64,000 bases of DNA. Source: Octopus vulgaris. Taxonomy: Eukaryota. The stretch is taken from NCBI GenBank assembly GCA_951406725.2, contig OX597827.1:52452001-52516000 (forward strand), written 5' to 3'. Numbering within the stretch: position 1 is the first letter of the stretch; the number at the start of each line of letters is the position of its first letter. Below are positions 3,637 through 29,559 of this stretch, one piece after another. Below the pieces are notes generated by a model. The model saw nothing but the letters and a program-made list of their open reading frames with translations. It made no database searches and had not been told where the DNA came from. The position numbers and the translations under genes are program-made.

Positions 3637-3829
3637 TCGTGAGCTGAAACTAGATAAAATAAAATTTTTTTAAAAAATCGACTTTAACCAATTGACTAAT
3701 AATAGAGTGGAATTGAACTGGTGTGTATATTAATATTGGCATAGGTTTCCCCTAGACACATCAATATATATCGTTCTCAGAAAACTATCTTTAGTGCATG
3801 CCTCATCACTTCTTTTTTAAGTATTTCAC

Positions 3830-6185: not shown

Positions 6186-6317
6186 TTATTTTGGAAGCCT
6201 TCGTAACTCATGGGACAGCCATGTTGCAAAGGAGAGTAGAACCAGTGATCCAGATTGATGAGTAGCAGCTAATGGTGTTTCTACATAAGTCAGCAGGGTT
6301 CCGATACCCAGTCCAAT
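6186..6317 (-). CDS. COX15: COX15 coding exon 9 (terminal)
   Basis: ttacag|[43 protein letters not shown]; 132 nt. Confidence 0.96.
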   Translation of the reverse strand: MGLGIGTLLTYVETPLAATHQSGSLVLLSFATWLSHELRRLPK

Positions 6318-9300
6318 CTGTAAACAAGAAACAATATAATAATAATAACAATAATGTGAATAACGGTGGTAATAAAATTGAAGCCCTTGATGGTGATGGT
6401 GTTGCACCCAGCAGGCTCAGAAATACTGGTCTAGCTCCTGTCTGTCGTTACCCAGCAATGGACCAACACACACGGTGTAGATGGAACAGACAAGCCAATG
6501 CTGTGGTCATGGAGTGTTACAACCTGAACAACCTTGTAGACGAGACGAAAATGGTGCTCATATTAGGGGATACTGTCAATGTATGTATGACCAATGGAGA
6601 GAAAGAGGATTGTTACAACTCACAGAACAGAGATTATGTGATCGAGCTAGAGAAATAAGAAAAAAATTGTTGGTTCACAGAAGTAGAGCTCGAAGCTATC
6701 AAAAGATGGGTATTGGAAAACAGCAGCAGAGGAAACGATGAAAATACAGTTCTTACTGATAAAAGTAATCTCATAGCAGAAAACAGAGGTTAAATCTTTA
6801 ATCCATAGGAAAGGAACAGTGATAGCTTGCTCGATGAGAGACATATAGGTGATCTGGAAGACGACAATAAAACTAAAGGCGGCGAGCTGGCAGAATCGTT
6901 AGCAGGCCTGTCGAAATGCGTAGCTGTATTTCATCTGCCGTTACGTTCTGAGATCAAATTCCGACGAGGTTGACTTTGCCTTTCATCCTTTCGGGGTCGA
7001 TAAATTAAGTACCAGTTACGCACTGGGGTCGATATGATCGACTTAATCCGTTTGTCCGTCCTTGTTTGTCCCCTCTGTGTTTAGCCCCTTGTGGGTAGTA
7101 AAGAAATAAATAAAACTAAGAAAGAACAGTTGAGGAAAGAAGGTTGAGAGGAGATAGTGATGGATGGCAGAGAATGAGCATCACAAGTGGTGAGAAGATG
7201 TACACAGGTAGAATGATGAGGATGGACCAATAACCTTCCATACATTTATGCAGGTGTGTGTGTGTGTGTATAAAAAATAAAACAAAAGTAAAATAAATGT
7301 TGAGAACTGACCTGAACAAAAGCCATGGCAAGAAGGCAGTTGACTGCAGTTCGGGCTCGAGGTGATAATGGTGCTTTACGACAAACGAGCCATAGTGTAA
7401 CAATGGCAGCAGCTGTACTCTGACCCTGTTTTTACAAGAATTATATAGAAATATATATGTGCATGTGTGTAATACAGTATAGATCATATATTGTTAAATG
7501 ATTTATCAAATTGTTTCACAAGCAAAGCTATATATATATATATATATCTCATGAAAATAGGAACTGCATGTTTAGTTCTCATGCATACCAATATCCATTT
7601 TTTCTGCCGAGGGTTTATATGCCCCAATATTAGACTATTTTCAATATTAGACTATTTTCAATACATGGCGAATACTTATAATTATCATTTACAGAATTTT
7701 CACTCACCACCATTTCTTAATTTAAAACACACACACACAAATACACAGATATACCACACATTACGGCTATCTCAGGCAATAGGATTTTGCACTTACAGAA
7801 ATTTTAAAGTGTAACTACTAATTTCAGGTTACGTTCTGTAATTTTGCCGTCATGGAAACTTGGATAAATTTTAAGAATTTAAAAACTACAACTTCCTTCT
7901 TTGGTAAAAGGCCACTTCATCTTTTAGGTAAAGCCAAAATAATTAATAATTTGAAAAACCATAATCAGAATTACATACATATATGTATGTGTATATAAGT
8001 GTTTGTGCATGTGTATTTGTGTTTATTTTCTTGGGTAACAATGAGTTATCTGCCAATATCAGTCTCTCTATATTGTCATCATCATTTAATGTCTGCTTTT
8101 CCATGTTTGTCTGGGTCAGAGAGATTTTCTACAGTCAGATGCCCTTCTTGTTGCCAGCCTACATTTGCTTCCAAGCAAGGTAGTATTTCCCCATGGAAGA
8201 CTGGAAATCAACATTGATGCACACAGATACAGATATACACACACATGTATCATGGCCAGTGCTAGTGACATGTAAAAGGCATCCACCACACTCTTGGATT
8301 GGTTGGTGTTAGGAAGGTCATCCAGCTGTAGAAACTAACAAACCAGACTGGAAGAGTTTGGTAAATGATGATGATATAGTTATGGTATATTCAGTTAAGA
8401 ATGTAATAGAGTACAGTATAAAACTCATCCACCTTCAGATTTCACCCTGTGCTATCCAGTAGTAGTATTATACATACTTCCAGGTTTGTGTTTAGACTTC
8501 AATCATGTGTGAATAATTGAAAAAATATGAGTCAACAAGGAGTACAGTTGGACATTATTTTCAACCACTACATTTGTTTCTATGTAATGTAGTTCACCAG
8601 GTGCACAGGTACTTGATTATGCAACTGTTTCCTTGTATTTTGAGATCTAGTTGTGTTTCCTTAGGCGATATGTAAATATTTTCTCTGTAAGTTCAAATTC
8701 TCAGCCACTGACAGCGACTACTACTAACTTCAGGCTGTGACAGACAGAGAGGATGCTCTTGAAGCTGAGAATTTGAACTTAAAGAGATGATATTTGCATA
8801 CTGCCTGAGGAAACAACTAGATCTTATAATGCAGGGAAACAGTTGCATAATCAAATAACTACATGCCTGGAGAACTATAGAAACAATTGTAGAAGATTGA
8901 AAATAAATGTCCAGCCGTGTGTGTGTGTGTCTATGTACAAAATATGGGGGTTTAGTTCACAGGTGATCTAAATGGCTAGGTATGCTGGGTAAGCACTGTA
9001 ATGGATTACCAGGGCTTTAAGCTCATAGTCAAGATGGGAGTTATGGAACCACTGTAGATTTCCAATATAGTCTTCATAGTGTAAATATCCAGAGAGAAAC
9101 ACAATCATATTGATGGTTTGTAAGAGAATGATAGCAGAAGTGGCTATTGAGGGATAAAGAGAAAGAAAAATAAATAGAAAGAAAGGCATTGGCAGGGACG
9201 CTGGAGGTACAATCCTTGTCAATGTCTCTTTATCCCTCAATAGCCACTTCTGCTACCATTCTCTTACAAACCATCAATATGATTGTGTTTCTCTTTGGAT

Positions 9301-12300
9301 ATTTACACTATGAAGGCTGTAATCATACCTGGATTTACATAGGATTGTACCTAAAGACTATGGACTAGCATCTACAGTTGAACTGTGAACTTTCATGCTT
9401 TTTTTTTTTTTCCTTCATTTCTTTATTTCTCCAATCCTATATTTCATAGTTTTATTAACCTATACCCTTCACATTTTCCTTATTTGTCTCCGATGACAGA
9501 ATATCCCAGAAACAGCTGTAAGACTTAAAATTTTTCTAATAATAATAACATATATGACTTGAGATGTTTGTCTTTTATTGTCCTCTTTAACAAATATATA
9601 TACATATATACACAATGGATTTTTTTCTATTTCTGTCAACAAAATCCACTCGCAAGGTTTTGGTCTGCCAGAAATTATAGAAGACTAGCAGTATCGCCCG
9701 GCGTTGCTCGGGTTTGTAAGGGAAATAACTATATAAGCATTTTTAGAGAGTTATAGCCAAAAAATAGCAAAAAAATGCATTAAAAATTGAAAAAAAATTA
9801 AGGTAATTTTTTTTTTAAATCGTTGACACATCGTAGATATTTTTAGAGAGTTACTTCCCTTATATAATAACGAAAAATATGCATTAAAATGGAAAAATAT
9901 GATGGTAAATTTTTTTTAAATCGTAGACTCATCGTAGACGCGCGCTAATACCCAGAAGGGCTCGATATGAATCACGACTATAAGATACCCGCTTTTGGTT
10001 AAACTACACCGCAAAATGTGGGAGTAGTTACGAATCTAAATCGTAGGAGACAGACACACAACTTCACTCTTATATATAAAGATATAAGCCACGTAGTTAT
10101 ATACACATACTTTGTTATATACACATTCTTAAAAGAAAATGTTATTTTGAACACAACATTTACAAAGAATAAAATATTTTTTGGTTTTTCTTAACCCTTT
10201 CGTTACTATATTTCTGACCAAAATACACCCCTTATGTGTTTCAATTAATTTCTAACGTAATCATAAATTTAGTCTGGTTTCATTAAACAACTATAACTTT
10301 TTTATTTATGAATACATTAATCTGATTTTTGGAAGATAATTTAGTGAAATGTTCTCAACCAATTCTATACTATAATTTTTGTCACAAAGTGACTCTAATT
10401 GCAGGTAGATACAGGTAAATTCAACAATATATAAAATTATTAAAATTTTGTTCAAACATCGCTATAGAAAATGGGTTATTAGCTAATATTCAATTGGGTA
10501 TACAACAAAATTTTACGATAGAATTTGTTATTCTGGGTAACTTTCTAATACCCATAATAATATTTATGGCAAAATAGGCCTTAATTTCATTTAAGGTTGC
10601 GGGAAATAACAAACTATCGTTTCTTTCGCTTTGTTTAGGTTTAGATCAAATACCACATGCTTTTTTTTTTCAGTCATAGAGTTAGATTTATGAAGGTCTT
10701 CAGTAGAAAATCCTTCGAATTCTGACTCGCTGCTTGATATAATGAAATTCGTATCCATTTTTTGTCAGAATTACAAATTTTGAAAACACAATAGGAACAA
10801 ATTTCGGAAAAAAATCTCCCATAATTCACGGAATTAAAATTACACTTCGATTTTTGTACAAAACTGTAGTTGAACTGTTTACGAAGTTCTAAAGAGATTT
10901 ACTCTGATATTCTCATTTAAATATGAATAGGTAAATTCGGGTGGCTTGGTCACATTAACCAAAATTTTTTTCGGGCGGTTTGGTGCAATTATATATACAT
11001 ATATCTATATATAATATTATATAATAAAATATATACAGAGTAAAATAAAAACCAATTTACCTTTTCTGTATTGTTATTCGACCATCCGTGTGTCTTTGCA
11101 AATGTGTTGGAATGATAAGTGAGTTGTGTTTTGGCGCCTTTTTTTACTAATAACAAACACACACGTGTTTGTATGTAGTTGTTTGAAACGTTTGTGTTTG
11201 CCACTCTCATATATGTATGTGTATGCGTGTGTGTGAGGAATGACACACTCACGCATGCACACATGTACATCAATGCTTTTATGAGCGTCATAGAGAGAAA
11301 CAAATATTACATCGCCATCGCCATCGCATTCTATTTTCTACCTGTCAACACACAGTGAATTAGTTTCAGTTTATTCATTGCACACTGTGTGTGTGCGTTT
11401 GCGTGTGCTGTAAACCAGACTAAGAAAAGCATTTGACACACACACCAGAATGTGAGTTTTCTGTAAATTTTGCTTAATTGGAGTTTAAATTTTAAAAACT
11501 GGACCTGGCATGACGCGATGCATTGTACTCTTAAAAATGCTAGGTAAATTGTAATTGAAGAAATCCTATATTGTAGATTTGTATAACTCCCAAAGGGAGG
11601 CAGATAAAATCTGCCTTTTATAATAAGAGATACTTGTAAATATTCAAACTGAACATTAAGCATTATCATATGAAAGCACCTTACCTTTCCTCCTACAAAG
11701 AAAGTGAAATAAACCCCAGTAATATACAATATACAAACTAAAAAATGAACTTACCAGCCATCGATGGTTGAACTGAACTGTGGTTGGGTTTTCAAAAACA
11801 TTTTTCCACTTTGGTGAGAAAGCAGCAATGTCAGAAGGTATCCATCTATCAGCCATCTTTGGCCAAGAGTTGTAGACAAGACCAGCATCAAGACCAGCAA
11901 CAAATGCTCCTGATAACAATAAAAAATGACAAAATGGGGAGAATATTATAACTCAACAAAAACTTCTATCTTCTAAGTTCATATGATACAGCCAGGTTAA
12001 TTTTTTATAAATAATTAAGACCCACAGGCTAGTGTTAAACTCTGGTATCTGCATTGAAGTTCAAACTTGGAAGTTAGGTAAGATCCTTGAAATGGAGTGT
12101 GATCACTTCAGGATCACTGTAAGCATAACTGTGAGAATAATACAAGTGATGCAATGGAGTCAACATGCTTACTCAGAGTGACAACACTTGAGTTCTGAGA
12201 GATTAGGAACAGTGAGAATGGGTAAATGAGTTAATCATAGGAGTTAGTCATAGGTGACACAGCAAGAAACCAATTGCTACTGTTTGGGTGTTGTGCCTGA

Positions 12301-15300
12301 TTACATTTGATCTGCCAAAGTCAAATGATCTTACAGATCACAACACTGAAGATCAGATGCTACTGCATCACATAATAGCAGATGTTAGTTGCTTTTATAA
12401 GGTCACAATGTTAGTTTAGAAGTGATGGGTATGTAAGCAAATAATAAAACTTACCAGAAAAGGCTGTAATAAACACTAATCCTGTAACACCAAAAGAAAA
12501 TTTACGAAGTCTCAACATCTGTAAGGTTTTAGGCATCTGAAAGCAAGAGAAATCAGACCTGTTTTACAACAAAGGATCAACAGAATTTCTTTTTTGAGCA
12601 ACAGTATATCAAAAGAATTTATGCCTAGCATTATGAACGTGTCTGCATATACACATGCACAATTTCTTTCTCTTAAGACATATACACACACACATGTATA
12701 TGTGTCTAGACATCTATTTATATTTCAATATTACTATGTCCTTGTATATGAATTGATTATCATGCTTTATTATTTATAATTACTATCATATAGCATATCC
12801 CATTATTTTGTCAGGAAAGAAGCAATTCTTTGCAAGCCCTTCCAAACTGGTGTGTTTAATGCAGTTGATGTTCAGCTTGAACTTCTGTACATTAGAAGAG
12901 AATTGTAGTTCCTTGGTGGATGAACAAACAAAACGTTTAATGCAGAGTTTGTCAGTGAAATAAGATATAAATGAGCTTGGGTGGACGTGTACATAGCTTG
13001 CTAGTTTTGAGGAACTTTTATAATAGCAGTAGAAGAGATAAATGGAAAAATAATGTACTTTTGAGTCACTGGTAGGATAGTGTTAGTGAGTTTTTGCCAA
13101 TCAATTGGATGACCTCTTTTTTTAAATGCATCCAAGGATAATTACGTATATTAACAGAGGCTCCCAAATATGTGAATTGCATTCGAGTTTGGTAGAAAAT
13201 CAAACAAGTGACAGTATTTTCTGATTTTAAAGAGGAATTCTAGTTTTGGCAAATTATGTATGTGAAGTCACCCATGAAAACCTATCAATGATTTTGAGGT
13301 TTAACATTTGTGGTAATGTGGAGGACTTTGTAAAGTAAAGGCTATTTTATGTCTATGTATAGTGATTAAATTTTGTGGTGTTGAAATATTGCTATGTCCT
13401 CAACAATGAAATTGATATGTGTTCAACAAAGGATTCTGGATTATCTGTTCATGGAAGCAGTGAAAGTTAGATATGGGTATTTCAAGTTCCTAGTGGATGA
13501 CACCTGTATGTGAATAGTAAAGGAGTGAAAGTTTTTGGTAAAATTAGGAACTACCAAGCTGGTGATGTATGCTGACAATAAATATTCTATGAGTCAATGA
13601 TGAAAGATAACAATTGTAGAGGGAAATTAAGAAAATTTTTCAAAAGCATAAGACCATTCACTTTATACATACCATTTGTCGGCTGTTGACATGGGACAGA
13701 CCTGACCAGAGGAACATGACATAAAGGAGAAAAGCTGAACTTAGATGTGCAGCAAGGCGGTACTGACTGACTCGAGGGATGTCAATATCTTCTTCCAAGC
13801 CGCTCTTAACCATGAACCAACCAAGGAAACCCTGGAGAGAAGAAAAAGCATCAAATATCTTAATGAAAAAAAGCAGTTAAACAGTCATGATAAAATTCTC
13901 TAAAACACACAAAAGAAAAGAATCACTTGAGAATGCAGAGTAGAAAGAGATCAATTATGTCAAACAGAAAGGATTAAGTATGCAAGACTGTGTGGTAAGA
14001 AGTCTGCTTCCCAACCATATGGTTTTGGGTTCAGTCCCACTTTGTGGAACCTTGGGCAAGTGTCTTCTACTACAGCTTTGGACCAACCAAAACCTTATGA
14101 ATGGATTTGGTAGACAGAAACTGAAAGAAGCCCATCATATATATATATATCTAAAATATAAATCCTGTTATGTATGTGTGTGTCATCATCATCATCATTT
14201 AACGTCCGTTCTCCATGCTAGCATGGGTTGGACGGTTCGATCGGGGATCTGGGAAGCCAGAAGGCTGCACCAGGCTCCGGTCTTATCTGGCAATGTGTGT
14301 GTGTGTGTGTAAAAGATTAAATGGCCGTAATTTTCAACTGATTTTCTCCAAACTGGGAACATACATTACTTATGTTCCAGAGATGGTTTTAGACTCTTAA
14401 TGAGTAACGGGCCTCCTGGGAGCAGAAAATACCTGTTCCTGAGTTACGTGTAGAAGAGAGGTAACTCTATGTGAGGTAACTTTCAGAAATTGTCTCCCTT
14501 ACATCCATTGGTCAAAAAATCTCATATAAAACAGAGATGTGTGTATTCACTTTTCATGTGTATCCCTCTCTATCAATATCTATCTATCTATCTATATGTA
14601 TCTATCTGTCTACATCCTATCTATTTATATCTTATTCATCTAACTAGCTACTCTCTCTCCCCCTCTCTATTGTTTTCATTTTCATTTTTCAGATGCTATT
14701 GTTTTCATTTTAAGTTTCCAATCGCTATTTACAAATAGCAACAAATTACTGACAGAAAGAAGTTCACAATTACTGATGAAAGTAATTTCATAAATAATTT
14801 ACTTACAGAAGTTACTTAATAAATTTCACTTCAATCTGTACACTTCATTAAATTGCCTACAAATTTCTTATTTACTTTTGCAACGTTTTGTGTCTTTTTT
14901 GCTGTTGATGGAATTACTGACAAAAGTAAGCTCATAACTTACTGACAGGAGTAATTTCAAAAATTTTACTTAAATCTGTACACTTAGTTAATCTTCAAAA
15001 AATGTTCTTATTTACTTTTGAAACGGTTTTGTCTTTTTCTGTTGTTAACTTTTTTTTGCTGGTTCCTTCGATACTGGCTCTTTGGTTCATTAAGTGACAA
15101 ATTTCGTTTCAACACATACAATCCTCTATTTTCCATAAAAATTTCTTATTTACTTTCTGCCTGTTGTATTAAGAAATATAATTTCCATTACCCAGTTATT
15201 TTCATTGTTTACTATCTTCTGCACCCGTGTATTTCTGTATATGTATATAACCATGCCTAGAAGGAAAGTGTCAAATTTGTCTACAATATCAAGGTAAGCC

Positions 15301-18300
15301 AAAAGAATGTCCAGGGAAAGGGAGACAGCTGCAGAAAAGGAAGCATACCAAGAAACAAACAGACTGTGCACTACAAAAGCCAGAGCATCTCAAAGTGATG
15401 AACAGAGGTATGCATGGCTGACAAGGAATAGGATCTTTACTGCAGAATGAAGAGCAGTTGCGACAACTCAGAGAAGCAACTTCAAAGAAGCAGCTTTCAA
15501 TTATGAAAGTTACAGTGAACAACACAGAGAGCAAGGTAGCTATCTGAATGAAGGGCTGCAATGTTTCGTGGAAGATTTAAAAAGAGAAATCCTGTATGTG
15601 TTTGGAAATAGGTTTGAATAGAAATTGGATTGCTACAAACACATTTAAAGAGCTGAATCTGTCATAGAAGAAACAACCATGGAGCATTGTATGAACGTTT
15701 TTAGTTAGCAAAAGTGTTTATCAATGAGGTATAAATGATAATTAACCTTGGTAAAAAACAAGAACTCACCTGGAAACCCAGGAGACCAGACAATAACAAA
15801 ACATGAGGTTTCATGCCAGCAGACAGCCAACCTTTCCTCCAGAAATAAGCAGCAGGTAATAAGAAGACCATGCCTGTCAAACGACCCCACATACGGTGTG
15901 CATACTCCATGTAGTAGATGAATTTGAAATCAGTTAGTGTCATTTCTCTCTGGTTGCTGACACTATGAAGAAATACTAATAGAATGTTAGATAAATAAAA
16001 ATAATAACCAAAATTGATAGGTTGGCAATGGTCAGTATTGATGATATATAAAATGGATGGAAATAAAACCTGAAAAGGGTAGATGGAGATAGAATGCTGA
16101 ATATAATAATAAACAGGAGAAAAAGACAAGAAGTAAAGGATATTAAGAGAAAATAATGATGATGTGGCCCTTTTGAAGATAAGCCAATAAACACAATGCA
16201 GTTTGTGTCCTAAAAAAACTGAAGTCATCACCTTCCCCTGCAGATGAAATGATTTGGACATTATTTGAAGCAGATGAGTAGAGGTGTCACCACTGCATGG
16301 ATTGTCTTTTTGCTTTTGAAGCCAATATTCATTCTGGCTTAAAAAATGTTCAAGGACACCAGCTAGATCTACCTAAAAAAATGTCAGATTTTCCTGTGAT
16401 GTGATCGGCCTGGTGCACTTTTGATTAGGTGTCAGAAGACATGGTACCCACTGAGCAGAATTCTTTGTCTTGCCAAGTTAACCATTAAGCAGAATATTCT
16501 CAACCCTCTCATTAGATATGCTAATAGGATTGGCTATTTGATTTAAAATCAATTGCTTGTCATCCATCACCATATGATGAACACAATATTCTTCAAGACT
16601 CTCTCTTACCTACCTAAATTCAGTTGCCCACTTTAGCCCTGTTGATAAAACTGAAAAGCCATCCTCTAATGTAGCAAGTATGTCAATATGAATGTCCTTG
16701 GGGACTAAACCCTTTTTTCTGCAGGTACTTGATAACTCCACAACACCAAATTTTGTCCATTTTCAAGAGAAGTTGTTACTAGTTACTTTTGAAGTTTTCT
16801 TTGAACAGACAGGTGTGAGTTTAACTGGAAAGAAACAATTTAGTTATAAGAAGAATTGAAATTAATGCATGCAAAATTTCACAGCTCTAGCATCATTTCA
16901 TAGTCAGCCTATGGACTTTTCTGCCCACCCTCGTATTTTATTGATTCCAAAAGTATGAAAAGCAAAGTCAATCGCAGTAGAATTTGAACTCAGAATGAAA
17001 AACCAGACAAAATGCCACAAAACATTTTGGTTTCAAATTTTGGTACACAGCCAGCAAGTGCATGGGAGGGGGCTAATCGATAATCATCAACCTCAGACTG
17101 GTACTTATTTTATCGTTTCCAAAAGAATGAAAGGTAAAGTTGACATTGGCAAAATTTGGACTCAGAACACAACAATGGACAAAAAGCATTTTGCCTGGAA
17201 TGCTAACGACTTTGTCTACTTATTCAGAATGGATAATAATAAAGAGAATATCTAGGAGTGAAAATTTGTTCTTCTCTAACAAAACAGATTATATTTTGTA
17301 GATCTAATGTGTGTGTGTGTGTCTTGCAGACTACATAGAAACCTCACCAGTGCTGGTGACATGAAAAAAGAACTCAATAAATGCTGTGTTTGTATGGCGA
17401 AAATGAACAAAAAAATGTATAATTACGTTTATGATGGGAGTTATGTCCCCTACCAAAATTGTGGAAAAAAATAATAAAATAAGTGTAGCTGTCACAATAG
17501 TATTAAGCAAATAATTAAGGCTATGTGAGCTGGTAAAATTGTTAGCACACTGGGCAAAATTCTTGGCAGCATTTTGTCCAAGTGTATGTTCTCAGTTCAA
17601 ATTCTGTCACGGTCGACTTTGCTGTTCATACTTTGGAGATCGATAAAATAAGTACCAGTTGAGAACTGGCAACGATGTGATCAACTTACTGCTTCCTTGA
17701 AATTGCTAGCCTTGTGCCAAAACTCGAAAGCAATATTAAGCAAATACTTACTGTTTGTATTCGGGAAAGGTCTTATAGCGCTCAAACTCTGCAATCCATT
17801 CTTCTTGGCTGCTAGGTGGTTTCATGTCTTTCAACAGTTTCCAATCAACCATTGACAAACCTGATTCTGTCAAACTGAAACCATTAATAGTATAGTTTAA
17901 AACAAAACAGACAAGTGGAAATTGTTTTGAAATATGTTAAGTAAAATCTTCAGTCATTTCCTTTTCCCTATTTACATCAACTCATACGTATCAACCCTAC
18001 CCAATTTTTACAGTTGTCGCATACTCTTCCTCATCTCAACTTATCACCCTTCAACACTTATTTATTATATCCATCCTCTTACCCATTCCCTGTCTCTAAC
18101 CACTCTCACTCTCCCATACTCTTGTAACCTCTACACACACACTTCTCCCACTTCTACTCACCTCATATCTTGAGTTTACAGCCCAACATCTCATCACTAC
18201 AATTTTATCTTCATCCCAGCCACTCTCATCCTCTCTTCTATACTATAAAGTGATAGCCATGTAGCTGCTCTACAGCAAGAAATCTGTTCAGGTCCTGTCT

Positions 18301-25219: not shown

Positions 25220-26179
25220 TGTTTAAATAAAAATTGAAAGCTGTGACCCATAAATGAGTTGGTGGGGATTGAAAGTTGAATTTGTAGGCGTTGTTTTATT
25301 TATTTATTTATTATTTGTTTGAATTGCTGTCGCCTAAAATCTCTGATCTGGCCAGTTGTGTTGTATGGGTATCGGGTATGGACCCTACAGGTAACTAGCA
25401 CAAAAAAACCCAAAACAAACTGAAGGAGTTTGAGACTACGGCTGGAGAGAATGACCACGCCGACACCAGTAGCACCAGCGAGGCCACCGGCTCCACACCC
25501 AAAATTACCAACGACGGCACCCACATCACCGTCGGTGACAGTAGCGCCAACGATGTTACGTCTTACGGCGTGGTGGTCAGGGGTGACCACCACACAGACA
25601 AAAGCCGCAGCGATATCGCCGGACTTACGCTTCATAATGATAACATCACCGATGGCAGCCCCAGTAACACTGGTGGCTACATCTTCGGGCCCGGAGCAAA
25701 CCGAAGATGCGCCGGTAATGTGAACACAACCAACATCCAAACCTGGAAATGTATCGGGTCGACTTGGACGGCCTTCAAGCGACGCCTGTACAACCACAAG
25801 TTCTCTTTCAGGGTTCCGGAAAGACAATTCGTCACATCCCTGGCCAACCTCAAAGATGAAGAGACCCCATACGATATCAAGTGGAGGATCTTAGAGCGGC
25901 CACGATCCTACAGCATCGGGAGAGAACGTTGCAAACTTTGTATAGCTGAGTGAGCAAGGATACTCAAAGACTACCTGAAACCTGGATCACTGAACACTCG
26001 CCAGGAAATTTAGAGTCAGTGCATCCATTTCAAACGCTACCTGCTGCAAGCATGGGATTCCCCGTTCTCCGATTAAACCCGGCAGAGTCCCTACGATCTA
26101 AAAGCAGTCCAATGGGAAAAATCCCCCGTTCCCCCTCTTTTGGCCTACAAAGTACGGATATTTTTTTTTTACTCATTTC

Positions 26180-26344: not shown

Positions 26345-27038
26345 CTTTAAAATATTTATGAATTCCATCCTTAGATTATTGCTATTATTACTATACTTAT
26401 CATACGTTATAATTGCTCAGTCGGTACGATTCCATAAAACTGCTGGTATAAGTTGGAATCACTAGACCGTAGCTGTCATAATAACATAGGAACTTTTATG
26501 TGTGTAACGGTATATTTTAAGATATGTGTTGGAGTCGTAATTTGTGCCCTTTGAACGGTATTTCTATAAAATTTCATCAATAAATATCCATTTTCCTGAA
26601 AGTTATAAGGGAAAAATCGGATCTTGTGAATTTTCCGAAAGTCCTCTCCCCCACCCCGTTCGTTTGTGCAAATTTTTTTCATATTCACTTTCTACACATT
26701 TTTTCACATCTTGTAGGCTGTTTTTTCTTAAAATTTGGTTTTCATGACCGGAGCTTGAACTGTATATTGACCGTTCTTTCAATTAATGTTTAAAGTTATT
26801 TTAATGCGTCTAGAAATATTTCTATACCTAAAACTTCCAGAGAGAAAAACTAATTTTGTGAGCATTTGTAAACAGATCGGTCCTACTAAAACACGCCGGA
26901 GGGTTGATCTTGATATATTATTATATTTTACTAATCAGTTAAGACTTGTGCACGCCATAGACTTATTAAGTCGGCGAATGATTTCTACACACCGTAGACT
27001 TGTCATCAAGGCTGCAATGTGTCGCTAAGAGAAAAACA

Positions 27039-28024
27039 TGTAGCGTAGCTACACTGTTTGAGAGATATATTAGAAATGACCTCGTGTTAGATAGCAACCA
27101 TCTTCGGCTATTTTGACCCCGTTGTGTCCACTGCTCTGATTGGTTGACATTGGTGCAGTTTGTCTTTTGACTTATTTCGCGCCAGTGTGTAAGCCAACCA
27201 ATCACGGCCTTCGGATAAGGTCCCATGACACAGTCTTTTGGGGGTTTCACTGGAGCCCACCTCAGGTTATAAAAGGCGCCAGCAAACCACTATTTCTCGC
27301 CTTAGGTTCCAGTCTTTCTCAGGACTAACCTCTAACCACAGAGCGACTCAGCCAGTTCCAGTTCTAGCGATAGACGACCAGACCAGCCAACCATGTTCCT
27401 GTTCCAGCCAACGACGACGCTAACGTATACCACCAACGCAGGACGTTTCCACCACCGACGCCTTTCTCTGCCGTCGCCATCACCATTATCGTCCTTCAAC
27501 TTCACGCCGTCTACACCTCCGTCGCTTTCATCTCCAGCAACATCAATACGTACACAGTGACTCGCTCAGGTTTAAACTCCATGCTGTTGTGAATATTCAC
27601 CAAGGTAAACAGCTCAGTCAGCCCGCGAGATTCCTGTATCAAGTAACCCGGCACGGCATAATAACCACAACTTCTGCACGTGTAGTAACCGGTGCTGCCT
27701 CGTGACCTCAACCTCTTTTACAGGACTACAATTGTTGTGTAACCTCACTACGAACTGGAAAATTAACTCCATCTTGTCTAAAATATCCTGAGAGACTCTT
27801 TTCTATGCTCTGTATTTTGTTTTGCTCGCATACACCTTGTTTGTACTTCTGTCGCACACACGAACACATAGACACAAACATTTGTCGCATGCACACAGAC
27901 ACCCCACTTTGCTAGCACCCATACTTTATCTTATTGTACACATCTGTAAATAAAGTCTTCTCTCTAAAACAGTAGAGCGGTTGTCGTCTTCATTATTCCT
28001 TTTGGCACTTATTCATTTATATCA
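27039..28024 (+). mobile_element. Solo-LTR-like insertion nested in the TIR element
   Basis: TG...CA ends, TATA box (GTTATAAAAGG at about 27267), AATAAA at about 27949, flanking CATGTA direct repeats. Confidence 0.55.
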
Positions 28025-28439
28025 TGTATTTGGCTTCTTCTTTTGTTAGGGGCGACCGTGCGGCGTTAAAAAGGAGACATTTCTGTCACAAACTCCTACG
28101 TACGGTCGTTTTCCAATTTGAGAATAATACAACTTTTTTCTGCTTAACAATGATTACAGTAGGTACACATGGCACACCTCTTGTATGCACAGCTTGCAGC
28201 ACCATAAATGACAATCTTTTTAGCTATGAAGTTATGAATATGAGCAACCTCAAGGTTGCTCTGTTTATATCATAAACGATCTAAAAAGCGTATCCTTTAT
28301 GAAAGATTTTGGGAAGCAAATCTCATCCATCCACTGACAATAGAAATTCGTAGCGGTGCAAAACGTTCACTTGCAGATAAAAAAGAGCTGGGGAATACAC
28401 GTTTCAGGGTTCGTCTGGCGGTCATTTAATAAGTCGCGA

Positions 28440-29300
28440 AGTTTTTCGGTGGGGAGTTTTTCGTTGTTATAATAACCTGTCCACATCACGTACACGCTTT
28501 CAGAGTTGTGTGGTGCTTCAGCCACTCGAGGAAAGTCTGTTAAGTAGTCGAATGCTCGTGTCCAGAATTCCGTTTCTGGAAGAGGAAACCGACGAGGCTG
28601 CTTTTTCAGTCACTGTTGATAATGCAGCGATTGTCCACAATGAGGAATACGCCAAGCTTTTGGCCGCTTCGAGAAGGCTTTCTCATATTCGGGTGCTCGA
28701 GTTACCCAACTACGAAGCAAGTTGGATTCCACGTATTAACGGCGTTGTTTCACCAACTCGATACAGGTTCGCATACGTAATTTATTTGAATGCAGCTCAT
28801 TGCTGTAGACGTGCACGGACACAGCGTGAAACAAACAGTTACCTTCCGCTGTAACGTGGACAGGAATATAGGATACCTCATTGGACGTCAGAAGGTACAG
28901 CTTGGATTTATCGTCGATCGCGCTCTCGATTTTCGGTGACAAAAAAGCTCATCTGATCTAGGCACGTTCTGTAACAAGATCGATTCCCTCACGATGGCAG
29001 TCTCTAAAGCGGCGAAGTCTCTCGCAGGAGACAGTCGACGTAGTGACTCCTCGTAGTCAAATGTGCTATCCCTACGGCAGCATGAAGCGCACACATAATC
29101 ATTGACGTTACTTCCCAAACCGGACAACATCGCGGTTGAGAGGTACTCGCAGTCTTTGTGGAACCATAACCAACATACAAAGCAGAAAACGCTTTCATAA
29201 CCGCAGCTCCGTATGCAAACACCGCACGAATACTTTGGTGTGCGCTTGAGTATTCTTGGGGAAGATACCATGACGCGAACACCGACGGTATAATTAACTG
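28440..29300 (-). pseudogene. Frameshifted PHD finger + vertnin-like OTU cysteine protease
   Basis: CGVC...CFVCWLWFHKDC...YVCASC (C4HC3 PHD); VTAEGNCLFHAVS...KLRMRTCIELV (OTU Cys box); AYSSLWTIAALSTV; VYVMWTG, in different frames. Confidence 0.7.
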
Positions 29301-29559
29301 TTGAAGATACTCGACAAGGACAGATGAGACGCAAAGCAGAGTGTGCAATACAATCACAGGCGACCTGTTTTACAATCGTGAACGCAAAAACAAAGCAATT
29401 AAACATTATCTACGGCGCGTACAAATCATTTGCTGAAAAGTTAACAAGTCTACGGCGTGCACAAGTTTTAACTGATTAATAAAATTATATTAATATATCC
29501 AGATCAATCCTCCGGCATGCTTCGGTGTGTTTTAGTAGGACCCTTAGTTGGGACGGATC

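What the first reader, a model, noticed from the sequence alone, without database searches (positions are those of the whole stretch)
26879..29542. TIR transposon whose only cargo is a PHD-finger plus OTU (vertnin-like) protease gene
TIRs of about 125 bp starting GGTCC, with internal sub-repeats (GCCRTAGA-like), enclose a decayed gene pairing a histone-reader-type PHD finger with an OTU-type cysteine protease. No transposase motif is visible. A reader plus deubiquitinase-like module on a mobile element suggests an anti-silencing or chromatin-targeting accessory protein, perhaps related to the ancestor of vertebrate vertnin. The superfamily (MULE, Harbinger or Kolobok) cannot be fixed because no TSD is evident. 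This copy is frameshifted and the OTU His box is not recognisable.
Basis: partly seen in the sequence, partly recalled or inferred. Interest (0 to 1): 0.7.

Follow-up and report, generated by a model that had tools for sequence, protein, structure and literature searches.

The report
Dead Mutator transposon, PHD-OTU head left
This is a broken copy of an animal jumping gene that has likely lost its DNA-cutting half, leaving the front end of the enzyme: a zinc finger predicted to read histones and a domain predicted to clip off ubiquitin, a kind of protease fusion already catalogued on such elements.

Summary
The TIRs and the decayed PHD + OTU gene are real. The reading 'cargo-only accessory element of unknown superfamily' is not supported. 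Relatives carry the same PHD-OTU as the N-terminus of a Mutator (MULE) DDE transposase in one open frame: pearl-oyster KAK3103000.1 and locus L054. Their ends (CGGT../GGGT..) resemble this element's, which places its true ends at 26878 and 29543. With those ends, the only other copy in this genome has an 8/9 target duplication, and relative L128 has 9/9. This copy has none. It lacks the DNA-binding and DDE regions, has a stop and at least three frame breaks, and is shared with three other organism labels. The differences seen look unselected. An OTU on a MULE is in print (MuDR-6_HM), and this scan found PHD-OTU MULEs three times before on other genomes. The remaining interest lies in the family: an untested reader-protease head whose nearest structural neighbour is vertebrate vertnin.

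The parts
26878..26998 (+). Left TIR (3' end of the gene); begins CGGTCC; GCCRTAGA sub-repeats
   Evidence: terminal base inferred from the TSD register in the C6 copy and in L128
27039..28114 (+). Nested solo-LTR-like repeat (TGTAG...CTACA family, about 1.0-1.2 kb); this copy lacks its last few bases and right-hand duplication; unrelated to the MULE
   Evidence: 40 places scored in each; 9 of 11 distinct copies with both ends readable have a perfect 4-bp TSD, 7 further rows had unclear ends; absent from the C6 sister copy
28115..28356 (.). Subterminal element sequence shared with the C6 copy (84% identity); no similarity to transposase profiles
28435..28936 (-). Decayed vertnin-type OTU domain: Cys box TAEGNCLF (Cys codon 28835-28837), stop at 28736-28738, frame breaks near 28690 and 28525; His box at most a remnant (PKNFA, about 28435-28449, by eye only)
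28957..29226 (-). PHD finger (C4HC3, 29080-29226) and the following conserved linker; frame break before the OTU
29409..29543 (-). Right TIR (5' end of the gene); begins GGGTCC read inward

Best explanation
The element is a decayed TIR transposon that likely arose by internal deletion from a Mutator-like (MULE) element whose single transposase ran PHD - OTU - conserved middle region - DDE core, and it later took a solo-LTR-like insertion. Shown: TIRs; a broken PHD-OTU; no DDE region; intact PHD-OTU-DDE frames in other animals; similar ends; a 9-bp TSD on the sister copy; the nested repeat; the same insertion under other organism labels. Inferred: the deletion removed everything from the OTU end to the 3' subterminal DNA, and the copy has decayed without selection since before those organisms split. 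The locus is predicted to make no functional protein. Likely working of the intact enzyme (about 50%, untested): the PHD, whose profile is closest to the Pygopus, MLL1-PHD3 and DIDO fingers (H3K4me2/3 readers, established knowledge), tethers the transposase to open, H3K4-methylated chromatin. The OTU, with Cys and His kept, removes ubiquitin in cis from the transposase or from chromatin and repair proteins at the break, protecting the complex while the DDE core cuts and pastes with a 9-bp duplication.
For:: P0022 (964 aa) and L054 (1045 aa) hold PHD, OTU and MULE domains in one frame; P0082 and L063 hold OTU + MULE; D, D, CxxH and E columns are conserved in all 4. P0022, P0011 and P0023 align collinearly with the window's PHD, linker and OTU (sum E 1e-23 to 2e-27); 13 of 80 metagenome loci have a MULE hit; 5 of 80 have all four regions; the window's OTU falls in a 30-row group where 6 of 7 loci with at least 700 bp downstream carry the middle region and/or DDE; ends of L060, L128, L070 and L063 match the window's end at 13, 10-11, 9-10 and 10 of 14 bases; TSD 8/9 (C6) and 9/9 (L128); contigs of organisms B and C bridge both element junctions; organism D links the element to the same right flank; 4 synonymous and 9 non-synonymous differences each for organisms B and D. 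PHD neighbours. PMC6446971 Table 1 gives MULE TSDs of 8-11 bp and an OTU on MuDR-6_HM.
Against: No TSD at this copy (TAAACAGAT vs TTAGTTGGG). No autonomous parent found in this genome (0 of the 12 fetched of 66 MULE loci matched the OTU, PHD, middle region or TIR), and no DDE remnant marks the deletion point. Over all 80 loci, only 19 of 60 with room downstream have the middle region or DDE, and one close hit is a Helitron (P0007), so this OTU type also travels with other elements. The tree is the quick one, support for the group is only 82, and the window row is a long branch. L070, the full-length relative with both TIRs, shows no TSD, and the C/G end asymmetry is reversed relative to the gene in this copy compared with L070 and L128. 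The L060 and L063 ends were picked by motif or by eye, so their match scores are inflated. Substitution tables were cut and counts are small. Histone binding and DUB activity are untested.
Confidence: 0.85

Rival explanations
1. A dedicated non-autonomous helper element that carried only a PHD-OTU anti-silencing or chromatin protein, acting in trans.
For: No DDE trace in the element. OTU proteins that end soon after the His box exist (P0004, P0008, P0014). Relatives lacking DDE but keeping ends occur (L060, L128). 41 of 60 loci with room downstream show no middle region or DDE.
Against: Single copy with PHD-OTU in the genome; the sister copy has lost it; differences look unselected. L060 and L128 are themselves broken. 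The nearest relatives with room continue into the transposase (6 of 7).
Confidence: 0.08
2. A Pack-MULE-type capture: a small TIR element like the C6 copy picked up a host or other-transposon PHD-OTU fragment.
For: The C6 copy has the same TIRs without PHD-OTU. This OTU type also occurs in a Helitron.
Against: The PHD-linker-OTU arrangement, its place just inside the 5' TIR and the terminal sequence match PHD-OTU MULEs. No host donor was found in the genome.
Confidence: 0.04
3. Another TIR superfamily (Harbinger, Kolobok or Ginger), or two independent MITE ends.
For: The right flank begins TTAG, which recalls Harbinger targets (recalled, not from a call). Ginger1 transposases carry OTU or Ulp1+PHD (PMC2836005).
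Against: Both ends co-occur in the same order in the C6 copy with one 9-bp near-duplication. Ginger1 has TGTNR ends, 4-bp TSDs and a C-terminal OTU. No relative examined joined this head to a Harbinger, Kolobok or Ginger domain (30 of 64 hits scanned).
Confidence: 0.03

Closest known systems
MuDR-6_HM (Hydra), MULE group 14 of Dupeyron et al. 2019 (PMC6446971; seen: Table 1, passages, supplement rows)
   Same: Animal MULE with one ORF and an ovarian-tumour (OTU) domain
   Different: Listed with no TIR and no zinc finger; this family has about 120-bp TIRs and a PHD. Sequence relationship not tested, because the paper's alignment file was not seen.
Pearl-oyster KAK3103000.1 (P0022) and metagenome locus L054
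   Same: Collinear PHD-linker-OTU, 30-44% identity per segment for P0022
   Different: Intact, and continue into the middle region and MULE DDE core
Rehavkus (PMC6446971), Ginger1 (PMC2836005, passages), Medicago MULE-OTU fusions (PMC1702500, passages), OTU/VTD Helitrons (PMC9741609, passages)
   Same: DNA transposases fused to PHD and/or ubiquitin or SUMO proteases; same proposed role
   Different: In Ginger1 and the Medicago MULEs the protease is C-terminal, here N-terminal. VTD is another protease family. As of PMC9741609 (2022), transposon OTUs had not been assayed.
Vertebrate vertnin (VRTN)
   Same: Best structural neighbour of P0022's OTU among Atlas models, TM 0.86 against at most 0.75 for other named OTUs; UniRef names P0011 'Vertnin'
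   Different: VRTN lacks the catalytic site (PMC10318531, passages) and carries HTH domains. No PHD or MULE family is listed for its cluster.

Membership tests
MULE (autonomous) | DDE transposase with CxxH motif | tested here: not met
   No hit in the element or window; present in relatives P0022, P0082, L054, L063. This copy is therefore not filed as an autonomous MULE.
MULE (non-autonomous derivative) | Long TIRs | tested here: met
   About 120-135 bp, 80% alike
MULE (non-autonomous derivative) | 8-11-bp TSD | tested here: inconclusive
   Absent at this copy; 8/9 at the C6 sister; 9/9 at L128; absent at L070
MULE (non-autonomous derivative) | Internal sequence and ends related to a MULE-transposase element | tested here: met
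   Collinear with the N-terminus of MULE transposases; ends 9-10 of 14 alike to L070, whose TIRs were found independently
MULE (non-autonomous derivative) | Autonomous partner with the same TIRs in the same genome | tested here: inconclusive
   Not found with these queries; searches score only the best candidates
MULE group 14 (MuDR-6_HM) | DDE-domain clade membership | not tested
Ginger1 | TGTNR ends, 4-bp CCGG/CCGT TSD, C-terminal OTU on a Gypsy-like integrase | tested here: not met
Active OTU protease | Catalytic Cys and His boxes | tested here: not met
   This copy keeps the Cys box but has no His-box match. Both motifs were seen in 78 of 91 OTU rows; most misses are truncated rows or motif variants, and the window row was cut before the His box.
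H3K4me-reading PHD | C4HC3 ligands and peptide binding | not testable with these tools
   C4HC3 pattern with Trp before His is present; the family profile is closest to Pygopus, MLL and DIDO fingers; binding needs an experiment
Vertnin (VRTN) | Inactive OTU plus Vertnin_mid and HTH domains | tested here: not met
   PHD upstream and no HTH seen in the element; only the OTU fold type is shared

The most novel reading that the evidence does not exclude
This fossil belongs to a widespread invertebrate MULE lineage whose transposase carries an H3K4me-reading PHD and a catalytically active vertnin-type deubiquitinase at its N-terminus, steering and protecting integration. Vertebrate VRTN, which sets vertebra number, descends from a domesticated, inactivated transposon OTU of this type.
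Probability: 0.3. Interest if true: 0.6.

Novelty: new member of a known kind. Interest (0 to 1): 0.25.

Why it matters
The locus itself is a dead transposon fragment. Its value is as a pointer to intact relatives (KAK3103000.1, L054), which make two open questions testable: what transposon-borne OTU proteases do, and whether vertnin's dead OTU came from a transposon. Searches for vertnin + transposon, VRTN + transposase, VRTN/OTU/deubiquitinase and vertnin/OTU domain/Helitron listed no title proposing that origin; most of those papers were seen as listings only.

Tried and rejected
Word-index protein searches with the two fragments found nothing; only the HMMER search did. P0001 and P0020 (multi-stretch hits) were not examined. 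Own-genome PHD hits at 32-38% identity: L006, L008 and L009 read by eye as fingers inside LINE reverse transcriptases, L007 was not resolved; rejected as family members. Two further exact TIR-motif matches on C13 do not extend; there were 5 matches against 15 for the reversed control. A search with the MULE core of P0022 found nothing in the genome. Expression: no RNA holder was listed. Contigs of three runs guessed to be RNA cover parts at depth about 3-4, and one runs past the right TIR into the flank; this is no evidence either way. The Atlas search with the window's OTU fragment was unavailable. An AlphaFold job on alignment A1 had not finished, so there is no own model or fold search. Tree: quick method only; 4 of 28 proteins and 6 of 80 loci were left out, and identical rows were merged. 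The shuffle test on MULE versus middle-region-only labels was uninformative. Self-BLAST found flanking inverted repeats in 7 of 80 loci, of which 2 (L070, L128) begin SGGT. PMC10027918 (passages) has no VRTN or OTU. The search on Mutator insertion preference and PHD gave nothing relevant (listing only); PMC13317346 was seen as a listing only.

Full report
Setting. The window lies on contig C14 of a 2.8-Gb genome with 227 contigs. Earlier scan notes call it an octopus genome (not tested here). COX15 exons lie at about 6.2-17.9 kb on the minus strand. Whether the element sits in that gene's first intron or upstream of it was not resolved.

Observation. The TIRs are real: 26879-26998 pairs with 29409-29542 at about 80%, score 138 against a shuffle maximum of 28. 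On the minus strand there is a PHD finger (PF00628, E 0.0059) and an OTU Cys box (PF02338, E 0.0073), both under Pfam's cut-off. A profile of 20 relatives matches three frames in order (29175-28957, E 5e-10; 28936-28673, E 3e-24; 28709-28506, E 1.5e-12), weakly reaches the 'VMWT' strand, and finds no His box. There is a stop at 28736-28738. That is the anatomy of a solo LTR (established knowledge). Without it the element is about 1.6 kb.

Family in this genome. TIR and internal searches found one other member, a 771-bp copy at C6:60611161-60611931, 73-84% alike over its main blocks. It lacks both the nested repeat and the whole PHD-OTU. No second PHD-OTU and no parent transposase were found. 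The genome has at least 66 MULE-domain places; none of the 12 fetched matches this family.

Relatives. HMMER with the 70-aa OTU piece gave 64 hits. Of 30 scanned, 10 have a PHD, 1 has a MULE domain (P0022, pearl oyster KAK3103000.1) and 1 is a Helitron. Among 82 stored proteins, 10 (7 clusters) share P0022's conserved post-OTU region and 2 its DDE core. A metagenome scan kept the best 80 of 263 related stretches: 13 have a MULE hit, 5 have PHD, OTU, middle region and MULE, and L054 is one 1045-aa frame with all three Pfam domains. The four long frames share GxDxT(F/Y)N, G(S/T)DxExA, CxxH and NNxES, the MULE D-D-CxxH-E pattern (recalled). I take the middle region to be the DNA-binding part by analogy with PMC1702500 (passages); this was not tested. 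Against a uniform link, only 19 of 60 loci with at least 700 bp downstream have the middle region or DDE. In the 30-row OTU group that holds the window it is 6 of 7, but support is only 82, the tree is the quick one and the window is a long branch.

Ends and TSD. L128 has TIRs starting CGGTAG/GGGTAA inside a perfect 9-bp duplication. L070, with all four regions, starts CGGTCA/GGGTCA but shows no duplication. L060 and L063 have 3' ends matching at 13 and 10 of 14 bases, though these were picked after the fact. The window reads CGGTCC/GGGTCC in the same register, so its ends are 26878 and 29543. In that register the C6 copy is flanked by GCACAGAAG/GCGCAGAAG (8/9, chance about 2e-4), and the window copy by unrelated 9-mers. 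MULE TSDs are 8-11 bp (PMC6446971). The C/G asymmetry is reversed relative to the gene in this copy; this is unexplained, and a flip of the interior between the TIRs is one possibility.

Age and selection. Contigs of organisms B and C bridge both element junctions and the left edge of the nested repeat. Organism D joins the element to the same right flank, differs at 24 of 636 bases plus gaps, and has a short copy of the C6 type. No change is listed at the stop codon in D's covering contig (table cut). The differences visible in the decayed frames are 4 synonymous to 9 non-synonymous for each of B and D, and 2 to 3 for another run of organism A. One of B's four is a stop-to-stop change at a frame edge. 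This is as expected without selection, on small and incomplete counts.

Mechanism. Shown: a broken head without a DDE core, in a family whose intact members fuse the two. Inferred: internal deletion, a later LTR-like insertion, and decay. For the intact enzyme I favour chromatin tethering plus deubiquitination in cis. The family PHD is closest to Pygopus, MLL1-PHD3 and DIDO (E 1.5e-8 to 4e-6). The OTU Cys and His are invariant in the 17-sequence alignment. A role for such proteases in transposition was proposed in PMC2836005 and PMC9741609 (passages), and the latter states that transposon OTUs had not been assayed. Polyprotein self-processing (PMC1702500) is the main alternative.

Comparison. 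MuDR-6_HM is an animal MULE listed with an OTU; PHD or protease fusions are known in Rehavkus, Ginger1 and plant MULEs. The PHD-OTU-first order was not seen in the papers returned, but this scan noted it three times on other genomes. The vertnin link has real support at fold level (TM 0.86), and VRTN's OTU is described as inactive (PMC10318531). No VRTN sequence was available, so descent is untested. Supplements: three files of PMC6446971 were searched; its alignment file and Repbase entries were not seen and may already hold this family.

Verdict. A real but dead and ordinary locus: a new member of a known kind, interest 0.25. The open questions belong to its intact relatives.

Noticed in passing
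window 27039-28114: Abundant TGTAG...CTACA solo-LTR-like family with 4-bp TSDs, copies 75-85% alike over the full length; the internal coding part was not looked for.
   Followed up: partly
window 6225-17873 (minus): Five COX15 exons (PF02628); the first coding exon was not located.
   Followed up: partly
window about 25300-26040: Two overlapping frames of 184-196 aa with no Pfam hit; by eye the 3' part recalls a decayed Penelope-type GIY-YIG endonuclease end (recalled, untested).
   Followed up: no
window about 26535-26770: Very high-copy short repeat directly left of the element (depth up to about 1e5).
   Followed up: no
L008 1099-2244, L009 1078-2430: PHD-like finger inside LINE reverse-transcriptase frames in this genome; already noted by the scan (e1-9867775 and others).
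   Followed up: no
L083 937-9787, L131 689-9408; P0008 cluster: A separate vertnin-type OTU group that stops right after the His box and lies between about 44-bp inverted repeats starting TGTGTGGTTCCAG, about 8.7 kb apart; possibly another transposon class carrying a stand-alone OTU.
   Followed up: no
L128 3315-5548: TIR element with a perfect 9-bp TSD and a second family-like terminus at 3653, just before a truncated OTU.
   Followed up: partly
P0032, P0054, P0007: The same OTU type is joined to a FLYWCH-like start (by eye), a MADF domain and a Helitron RepHel, so it moves between element types.
   Followed up: no
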